A stretch of DNA of 64,000 nucleotides from positions 1-64,000 of the forward strand of contig CAXWPH010000013.1 of assembly GCA_963666055.2 (NCBI GenBank), in the 5' to 3' direction. The notes beneath the pieces are model-generated. The model searched no databases, was not told the DNA's origin, and was given only the letters and a program-made list of their open reading frames with translations. Shown in pieces: positions 53,516-54,041 of this stretch (position 1 is its first letter; the number at the start of each line of letters is the position of its first letter). The DNA is from Acidobacteriota bacterium (GTDB taxonomy: Bacteria; Acidobacteriota; UBA890; WLXD01). A program made the translations under genes and the position numbers.

Positions 53516-53760
53516 TCGAACCAGTTGATGACCAGCGTCACCGTGCCACTGCTGATCTGGCGTTGGTTAGTGTCAGGGAACATCACGAAACGCTGACCGT
53601 CGGCAGCAACGTCGGCGTCAGAGGCAAACTCGGCAGGCAGCACCTTGATGGCGACATCACGATCCAGCGTCGTATCGCGTGCTCGGTACACCTGCCCCAT
53701 GCCGCCTTCACCGAGCGGGGCGAGGATCTCGTAGTGGCCTAGTTTGGTGCCGGGTTCCAT
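53516..53760 (-). pseudogene. 'Empty' kinase gene: first ~48 codons joined in frame to the last ~33 codons
   Basis: MEPGTKLG...[24 protein letters not shown]...VTLVINWFD. Confidence 0.9.
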
Positions 53761-54041
53761 GGCGCTCCCGAAGCATGGTGGCTGAGCGCATGAAGCGTAT
53801 CGTCAGGCCATGCGAAGGTCCACGGGGCGCGAAGCCACCCGCTATACGTCAGTCCGCACATCAGAGATGCTCCGTCGGATCCACGGCGGAGAGCGTCTGG
53901 GAGTTGTCCCGCAGCGAATCCCTTGAGGAGCCCAACGATCGGTGGTTGTATCCAGGCGTCCCGATACTGACCAAGCCAAGAGCCTGACTCGACCAGGGTT
54001 ATCTCGGAAATCCCGGGAGGTAGACCGTGGCTGGAGGATCG

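What the first reader, a model, noticed from the sequence alone, without database searches (positions are those of the whole stretch)
53516..53803. 'Empty' allele: kinase start fused in frame to its own tail
Leader plus MEPGTKLG...AEFASD joins directly to [15 protein letters not shown]...NWFD, deleting roughly 800 codons. The retained 5' and 3' pieces are similar in length to those of the filled cassette at 55930-57626, as expected for a cargo-free form of the same unit. Only short GAC-type microhomology is visible at the join.
Basis: partly seen in the sequence, partly recalled or inferred. Interest (0 to 1): 0.7.

Follow-up and report, generated by a model that had tools for sequence, protein, structure and literature searches.

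The report
Kinase gene ends as shuffling anchors
This is a real remnant of a protein-kinase gene whose middle 2.5 kb is gone, one of over a hundred leftover gene ends in this genome that likely act as homology anchors for moving accessory genes around, not a precisely emptied cassette.

Summary
The mini-gene is real. Kinase codons 1-48 join in frame to the family's C-terminal DVAADG..NWFD, about 820 codons are missing, and short-read contigs from three samples bridge the join. It cannot encode a kinase. A 99% copy of a core uvrC/M50 segment cuts off its tail. It is not a sister of the filled unit at 55.9-57.6 kb (78%/77% identical, other junctions); a same-genus genome has an intact kinase beside the same neighbour.

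The family-wide pattern is the real finding. The genome holds 72 short heads and 47 short tails. Breakpoints crowd the first ~200 coding bases (67 of 72; p<1e-27) and the last ~200, repeated in relatives, but share no single site. The pieces lie in co-oriented arrays. In 17 of 20 pairs sharing a junction and cargo, homology stops at the anchor's outer edge, often after dropping to paralog level inside it, the expected trace of crossovers. Against over-reading: anchors are not enriched among synteny breaks once a spacer-only null is used (p=0.80). No integron integrase passed its cut-off. Best reading: homology-anchored, end-joining-completed shuffling using paralog ends, resembling Neisseria MMEs and NIMEs.

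The parts
53761..53826 (-). Conserved family leader with a putative promoter (hexamers at 53822-53817 and 53799-53794, 17-nt spacer); outer edge of the head anchor
   Evidence: Conserved at the same spacing before most heads; the strict sigma-70 scan did not call it, so the promoter is inferred
53614..53760 (-). Kinase head, codons 1-49 (Gly-rich loop and VAIK lysine; no HRD or DFG)
   Evidence: (Pkinase profile positions 1-39 only, below cut-off)
53515..53613 (-). C-terminal family tail DVAADG..NWFD, cut before [14 protein letters not shown]
52637..53514 (-). 99.3% copy of core locus C12:45562-46439 (uvrC 3' end, M50 peptidase 53353-52703) joined to the tail with 0-1 nt of shared sequence
   Evidence: junctions bridged by contigs
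54027..55841 (+). Amidohydrolase gene, the divergent neighbour; beside it G004 has an intact 898-aa kinase gene and G003 a kinase of another C-terminal type
57457..57642 (-). Head (columns 2-187) of the filled unit, other subtype
56078..57456 (-). Cargo of the filled unit; starts mid-gene; 83% like C12:405848-404482 over its whole length
55927..56077 (-). Tail (columns 2668-2821) of the filled unit
48560..51324 (-). Intact family member: leader plus 899-aa Ser/Thr kinase with PD40 propeller
45834..48563 (-). Second full-length family member, split into two frames
44331..45210 (-). Tail / lipocalin-like gene / tail module; the same cargo sits beside tails at C8:38001-38800 and G002 L040
22378..25338 (.). 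Two truncated kinase 5' parts enclosing a 99.45% copy (22832-24108) of C2:110916-112191 (GH99 gene)

Best explanation
The mini-gene is a kinase-propeller gene that has lost its middle 2.5 kb, and it is likely a by-product of recombination between the near-identical ends of a very large paralog family, ends that likely also serve as anchors for moving accessory genes. Shown: breakpoints of truncated family members crowd the first ~200 coding bases and the last ~200; these are the stretches where paralogs are most alike, also at synonymous sites; the pieces are co-oriented; identical head+cargo and cargo+tail junctions sit beside different outer flanks. Inferred: RecA-type strand invasion starts in these homogenised ends. 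A completed exchange swaps flanks and relocates the cargo. An exchange that stalls where the paralogs diverge is finished by a homology-free join (Ku-LigD or similar), which deletes the kinase interior (empty allele) or captures other DNA (filled allele), as in homology-facilitated illegitimate recombination. The mini-gene itself is predicted to be non-functional; it keeps a usable head anchor but only part of a tail anchor.
For: Truncated heads ending by column 270: 67 of 72 (G000), 41 of 46 (G002), 14 of 15 (G004), against 31.5% expected; tails starting after column 2600: 47 of 62, 21 of 26, 17 of 18, against 6.9%. Internal scraps also start in the head zone, 21 of 24. Four-fold-site identity is 0.60 in codons 0-50 and 0.69 in the last 15 codons, against 0.48-0.52 in the catalytic core and 0.33-0.42 in the propeller. 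The next family piece within 6 kb after a truncated head is on the same strand in 42 of 44, 26 of 27 and 4 of 4 cases. Of 26 pairs sharing junction and cargo, 20 non-redundant ones were aligned: in 17, homology ends within 30 nt of the anchor's outer edge or inside it (24% expected, p=2e-8), and in 10 of those the outer 60 nt are at least 10 points less identical than the cargo. Captured 99% copies join with 0-1 nt of microhomology. Ku beside LigD, ComEC and DprA are present. The other multi-copy families among the 22 examined lack such end scraps.
Against: The islands are a gene-by-gene patchwork. The apparent 5-fold enrichment of synteny breaks in anchors (42 of 355 ends) vanishes against a spacer-only null (33 of 227 spacer breaks versus a 16.4% share, p=0.80), and length-matched spacer tests are not significant (p=0.52, 0.32). 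Anchors therefore explain only a minority of rearrangements. The 20 pairs were picked by hand and are not fully independent. Only 15 of 72 heads are followed by a tail. No same-species strain, circular intermediate or experiment was available. High identity at the ends could also reflect DNA- or RNA-level constraint.
Confidence: 0.55

Rival explanations
1. Ordinary decay in a patchwork island: kinase genes are deleted or overwritten like any other gene, and short ends persist because they lie next to selected neighbours or lend cargo a promoter or trailer. They have no special recombination role.
For: No enrichment of synteny breaks in anchors against the spacer null. The gene after a head is co-oriented in 47 of 72 cases (p=0.013). 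One sulfatase-like copy has gained the kinase leader.
Against: Simulated random deletion gives 30-55% short heads unless ten rounds of large deletions are run, and those give more than 1.4 internal pieces per head; observed 93% and 13 internal per 72 heads. Heads before opposite-strand genes are just as short (23 of 25 by column 270; median 145 versus 137). Tails show no orientation bias (27 of 48). Paralog-level switches inside anchors need homologous exchange. The simulation is crude and includes no selection.
Confidence: 0.24
2. The ends are fragile or are cut by a nuclease, for example at the tail quasi-palindrome, and breaks are repaired by Ku-LigD with capture of random DNA; homology between paralogs is incidental.
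For: Joins with 0-1 nt microhomology. Ku-LigD present. At C2:361859 the tail appears to fold back on itself after NWFDE, and the window's tail is cut at almost the same place.
Against: No single site. Head and tail folds are no better than shuffles (z -0.99 to +0.83). No candidate nuclease was identified. It does not explain flank swaps with paralog-level outer halves.
Confidence: 0.1
3. A dedicated site-specific cassette system (integron-like) in which the mini-gene is the empty site left by cargo excision.
For: Co-oriented arrays, whole-gene cargo, three in-frame head-tail fusions in G000, 29 tyrosine-recombinase hits.
Against: Scattered junctions. The three empties have three different joins (215|2686, 184|2748, 176|2785), and two fusions in relatives are out of frame. 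No integron integrase passes its cut-off (best 149 of 265 bits, partial, with a stop). No Rfam match. Some cargo starts mid-gene.
Confidence: 0.06
4. Long-read assembly artefact, or alternatively a functional 124-aa mini-protein.
For: The assembly has many frameshifts and an inverted duplication on C8. All three G000 fusions are in frame.
Against: The join is bridged in 3 samples. Identical junctions recur in independent genomes and short ends occur in 12 of 21 metagenome loci. The ORF lacks the catalytic motifs and ends in out-of-frame uvrC sequence.
Confidence: 0.05

Closest known systems
Neisseria minimal mobile elements (PMC3787668 and PMC1797815, passages read)
   Same: Alternative gene content exchanged by homologous recombination in conserved coding flanks, with no dedicated enzyme; some regions are present in one genome and missing in another.
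   Different: MME flanks are conserved genes at a syntenic site. Here the flanks are the two ends of one multi-copy gene, which is destroyed in the process, and cargo moves between non-syntenic sites.
Neisseria NIME/dRS3 repeat arrays (PMC1797815, passages read)
   Same: Dispersed, mosaic repeats proposed to promote exchange of adjacent genes, with recombination end points in or near the repeats.
   Different: dRS3 are 20-bp non-coding inverted repeats with a proposed phage recombinase. Here the repeats are 40-260-nt pieces of a protein-coding gene and its leader, with ragged inner ends.
Homology-facilitated illegitimate recombination (PMC6382021, passages read; the primary paper PMC122324 was not held)
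   Same: A RecA anchor on one side and an illegitimate join on the other, in competent bacteria; ComEC and DprA are present here.
   Different: Described as a rare laboratory event. Recalled joins use a few bases of microhomology, whereas the joins measurable here have 0-1 nt. Nothing in the passages read describes a genome-wide paralog family as the anchor.
Integrons (recalled)
   Same: Co-oriented arrays of accessory genes separated by repeats.
   Different: No IntI over cut-off, no fixed crossover site, cargo with arbitrary ends.

Membership tests
Integron | Integron integrase IntI in the genome | tested here: not met
   TIGR02249: 0 of 23 matches over the 265-bit cut-off; best 149 bits, partial, one stop; genome 95.7% complete
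Integron | Fixed crossover point in the repeat | tested here: not met
   At most 12 of 133 head ends in any 10-column window, P=0.4
Integron | attC-like folded site | tested here: inconclusive
   Folds of 2 tails and 2 heads are no better than shuffles; no attC model was run
Integron | Co-oriented repeat array | tested here: met
   42 of 44, 26 of 27 and 4 of 4 next pieces on the same strand
Minimal mobile element | Alternative fillings behind the same outer flank | tested here: met
   Intact kinase in G004 versus mini-gene here; G000 C2:382734 intact versus G002 L044 38-column head, outer flank 98.9% over 800 nt; mostly one flank only
Minimal mobile element | Conserved flanking genes at one syntenic site on both sides | tested here: not met
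   Outer flanks differ in 17 of 20 same-cargo pairs; the left neighbour of this site differs in every relative examined
Minimal mobile element | Crossover by homologous recombination in the flanks | tested here: met
   Identity switches from 95-100% to paralog level inside anchors; sequence trace only
HFIR | RecA-dependent anchor plus illegitimate join during transformation | not testable with these tools
   ComEC and DprA present; dependence and donor route untested
HFIR | Short microhomology at the illegitimate join | tested here: inconclusive
   0-1 nt at the four junctions of two 99% copies; parent of the mini-gene join missing
NIME/dRS3 | 20-bp dRS3 inverted repeats | tested here: not met
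   The repeats here are coding-gene ends; dRS3 as defined in PMC1797815
Non-autonomous transposon (MITE or Pack type) | Fixed paired ends, terminal inverted repeats, target duplication | tested here: inconclusive
   Only 15 of 72 heads pair with a tail, and outer flanks are shared for variable lengths; TIR and TSD were not formally scanned
Functional Ser/Thr kinase (PF00069) | Catalytic loop and DFG motif; match over cut-off | tested here: not met
   Profile positions 1-39 of 263 only, 19.5 of 31.7 bits

The most novel reading that the evidence does not exclude
An expanded signalling-kinase family has been co-opted as a recombinase-free, genome-wide cassette system. Its promoter-bearing 5' ends and conserved 3' ends are kept as interchangeable adaptors at more than 100 sites, letting accessory genes be captured, given a promoter, excised and re-docked across genomes of an Acidobacteriota order. 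The mini-gene is an empty docking site.
Probability: 0.25. Interest if true: 0.78.

Novelty: new variant of a known kind. Interest (0 to 1): 0.5.

Why it matters
It suggests a route to flexible genomic islands that needs no integrase: a large paralog family supplies its own recombination anchors and is consumed in doing so. It would explain why these genomes carry more kinase starts and ends than catalytic loops (80:49:72 in G000), warns that kinase counts from annotation are inflated by scraps, and gives a testable handle (defined anchors, recurrent junctions) on how uncultured bacteria of this group shuffle accessory enzymes. The single mini-gene matters only as a marker of that process.

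Tried and rejected
Whole-genome protein-profile scan timed out and was replaced by DNA profiles. Enrichment of synteny breaks in anchors looked 5-fold but did not survive a spacer-only null, so I dropped it as support. No reverse transcriptase was found in G000, and heads include DNA upstream of the presumed transcription start, so a cDNA route was rejected. No RNA holder listed, so there is no verdict on expression. No direct parent of the tail among 5 genus genomes (best 82%). The pattern for this head's own flank found 0 metagenome contigs, and the tail pattern found 0 viral contigs. No Rfam match in 44000-58500. No promoter or terminator by the strict scan. The apparent 5' scraps of a control family were the kinase leader itself. 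In 78 loci of other, mostly Acidobacteriota, genomes, 16 of 102 heads ended early, several visibly from frameshifts; that sample favours long matches and was not used. Rows dropped before counts: the inverted duplicate on C8 (beyond 48.5 kb), hits under 12-15 bits, and segments hit 4 or more times (IS-like). Literature: six searches (listings and abstract starts only) showed no description of this kinase-end pattern. Passages were read from PMC1797815, PMC6382021 and PMC3787668; no supplements were read. Most subscription papers are not in the library, so absence from print is not established. No structure prediction was run; it would not be informative for this ORF.

Full report
Observation. 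The minus-strand ORF 53760-53386 joins kinase codons 1-48/49 in frame to the C-terminal motif of the same family. On a DNA profile from 29 long family genes the head is columns 2-215 and the tail 2686-2785, so about 820 codons are missing. Pfam sees only positions 1-39 of the kinase profile. Short-read contigs of three samples in two studies cross the join without a difference, so it is not an assembly error. The tail ends at NWFD because an 878-nt, 99.3% copy of the core uvrC/M50 locus begins at 53514; its other end appears to cut into the start of the beta-lactamase-family gene at 52636.

This site in relatives. Beside the same amidohydrolase (93-96% identical), G004 has an intact 898-aa kinase gene in the same orientation and G003 a kinase of another C-terminal type, each about 500 nt further off. 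G002 has only a tail scrap and G001 nothing. The ancestor of the mini-gene was therefore likely a whole gene, although the G004 gene is only 77% identical and is not the direct parent. The filled unit at 57642-55927 is another subtype (78% head, 77% tail, different junctions), and its cargo begins mid-gene. The genome is likely Acidobacteriota, inferred from the titles of the closest head matches.

Family census. G000, with the C8 duplicate removed, has 28 full-length profile hits, 72 heads truncated within the kinase domain and 62 5'-truncated tail hits. 67 of 72 heads end by column 270 (31.5% expected, p=6e-28) and 47 of 62 tails start after column 2600 (6.9% expected). In 983 kb fetched around pattern hits (not whole genomes), G002 gives 41 of 46 and 21 of 26, and G004 gives 14 of 15 and 17 of 18. 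Tail starts are less exact, because the linker before the last strand is variable. There is no single site. In G012, from another family of the order, 11 of 26 tails are short and 4 short heads were seen. In metagenome contigs, 12 of 21 loci carry short tails, 8 carry long genes and 1 is uninformative. Motif counts for head:catalytic loop:tail are 80:49:72 in G000, 33:21:25 in G002, 17:8:10 in G014 and 28:17:21 in G020, but about even for head and loop in G003, G004, G007, G011, G013, G019, G021 and G024, so the excess is patchy. Three of the 22 multi-copy clusters examined are this kinase family; the others show few lone end scraps once one artefact is removed.

Anatomy. Heads usually start at a conserved leader with two hexamers 17 nt apart (promoter inferred, not called). 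Tails end at the stop codon plus a trailer shared for variable lengths. Pieces are co-oriented: 42 of 44 next pieces in G000, of which 27 are heads and 15 tails. Neighbouring genes are mostly whole accessory genes starting some tens to a few hundred bases away; 47 of 72 are co-oriented after heads and 27 of 48 before tails. G000 has three head-tail fusions, all in frame, with different joins; two fusions in relatives are out of frame.

Evidence for exchange at the ends. 26 pairs share an inner junction and cargo. Of 20 non-redundant pairs, 17 lose homology within 30 nt of the anchor's outer edge or inside it, against 24% expected from the break rate in anchor-free spacers. In 10 of the 17 the outer part is only paralog-like while the cargo is 88-99% identical (alignments). 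The break zones are where paralogs are most alike (0.73-0.79 versus 0.45-0.67), including at four-fold sites. Internal scraps start in the same zone (21 of 24).

Evidence that limits the claim. Shared segments between G000 and relatives end in anchor zones 42 times of 355, but 227 of 296 ends lie in spacers anyway. Against spacer DNA there is no enrichment (33 of 227 versus 16.4%, p=0.80). Anchor-bearing spacers break synteny in 71 of 74 cases versus 156 of 210, a gap that is not significant after matching for length. The islands are shuffled gene by gene, largely without these anchors. Joins of 99% copies show 0-1 nt of shared sequence, consistent with end joining. Ku and LigD are adjacent on C3, and ComEC and DprA are present. 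No reverse transcriptase was found and no integron integrase passed its cut-off.

Mechanism. Shown: clustering near the ends, co-orientation, flank swaps and homology-free joins. Inferred: strand invasion between paralogs starts in the homogenised ends; complete exchanges move cargo, and stalled ones are closed by illegitimate joining that deletes the interior or captures DNA (0.55). A crude simulation of random deletion does not reproduce short heads with few internal scraps, but decay with selection on ends is not excluded (0.24). A fragile or cut site (0.10), a site-specific system (0.06) and artefact or mini-protein (0.05) are less likely.

Comparison and verdict. It works most like Neisseria minimal mobile elements and NIME arrays and like HFIR (passages of PMC3787668, PMC1797815, PMC6382021), but it fails membership of MME (no fixed syntenic flanks), NIME and integron. 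Six literature searches showed no report of kinase-gene ends in this role. One earlier scan note describes a loosely similar integrase-less array built on tmRNA ends (unchecked). The mini-gene alone is a dead remnant; the family-wide pattern is a new variant of repeat-anchored gene shuffling. Interest 0.5.

Noticed in passing
G000 genome-wide, e.g. C3:136956-137517: A roughly 280-nt MITE-like repeat with about 33-nt inverted ends; about 250 high-copy segments, some in tandem.
   Followed up: no
window 33562-35031 (+): Tyrosine-integrase N-terminal and catalytic part fused in one ORF to a PD40 propeller fragment; likely another patchwork join.
   Followed up: no
window 31340-32953 and 63098-63493: DnaB-like N-terminal domain genes (one with an AAA_25 domain) in integrative-element-like stretches; 58156 onward is 99.9% identical to the start of contig C6.
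   Followed up: no
G000:C8:29538-42541 versus 53958-66961: 13-kb inverted duplication at 99.9% reaching the contig end; possibly a long-read fold-back artefact; excluded from counts.
   Followed up: partly
G000:C2:361837-361900: A head-tail fusion whose tail runs into an inverted copy of itself just after NWFDE, at a short inverted repeat in the tail; suggests template switching.
   Followed up: partly
G000:C10:10902, C12:29143, C15:1302073: Kinase heads fused in frame to long unrelated ORFs (about 1.2-2.5 kb), giving chimeric proteins with a kinase N-terminal stub.
   Followed up: no
window 21673-22255 and 45228-45810: The same small membrane-protein gene occurs twice (92.6%), each copy close to kinase pieces.
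   Followed up: partly
window 56098-56109: The homopolymer run is 3 nt shorter in short-read contigs of all four runs; frameshifts in this assembly may be errors.
   Followed up: partly
G000:C10:50422-50736: Partial integron-integrase-like match (149 bits) with an internal stop.
   Followed up: no
G000, many islands: Numerous 99% duplicates of 0.4-7 kb with arbitrary ends, including core-genome segments, beyond IS copies: an active DNA-capture process of unknown route.
   Followed up: partly
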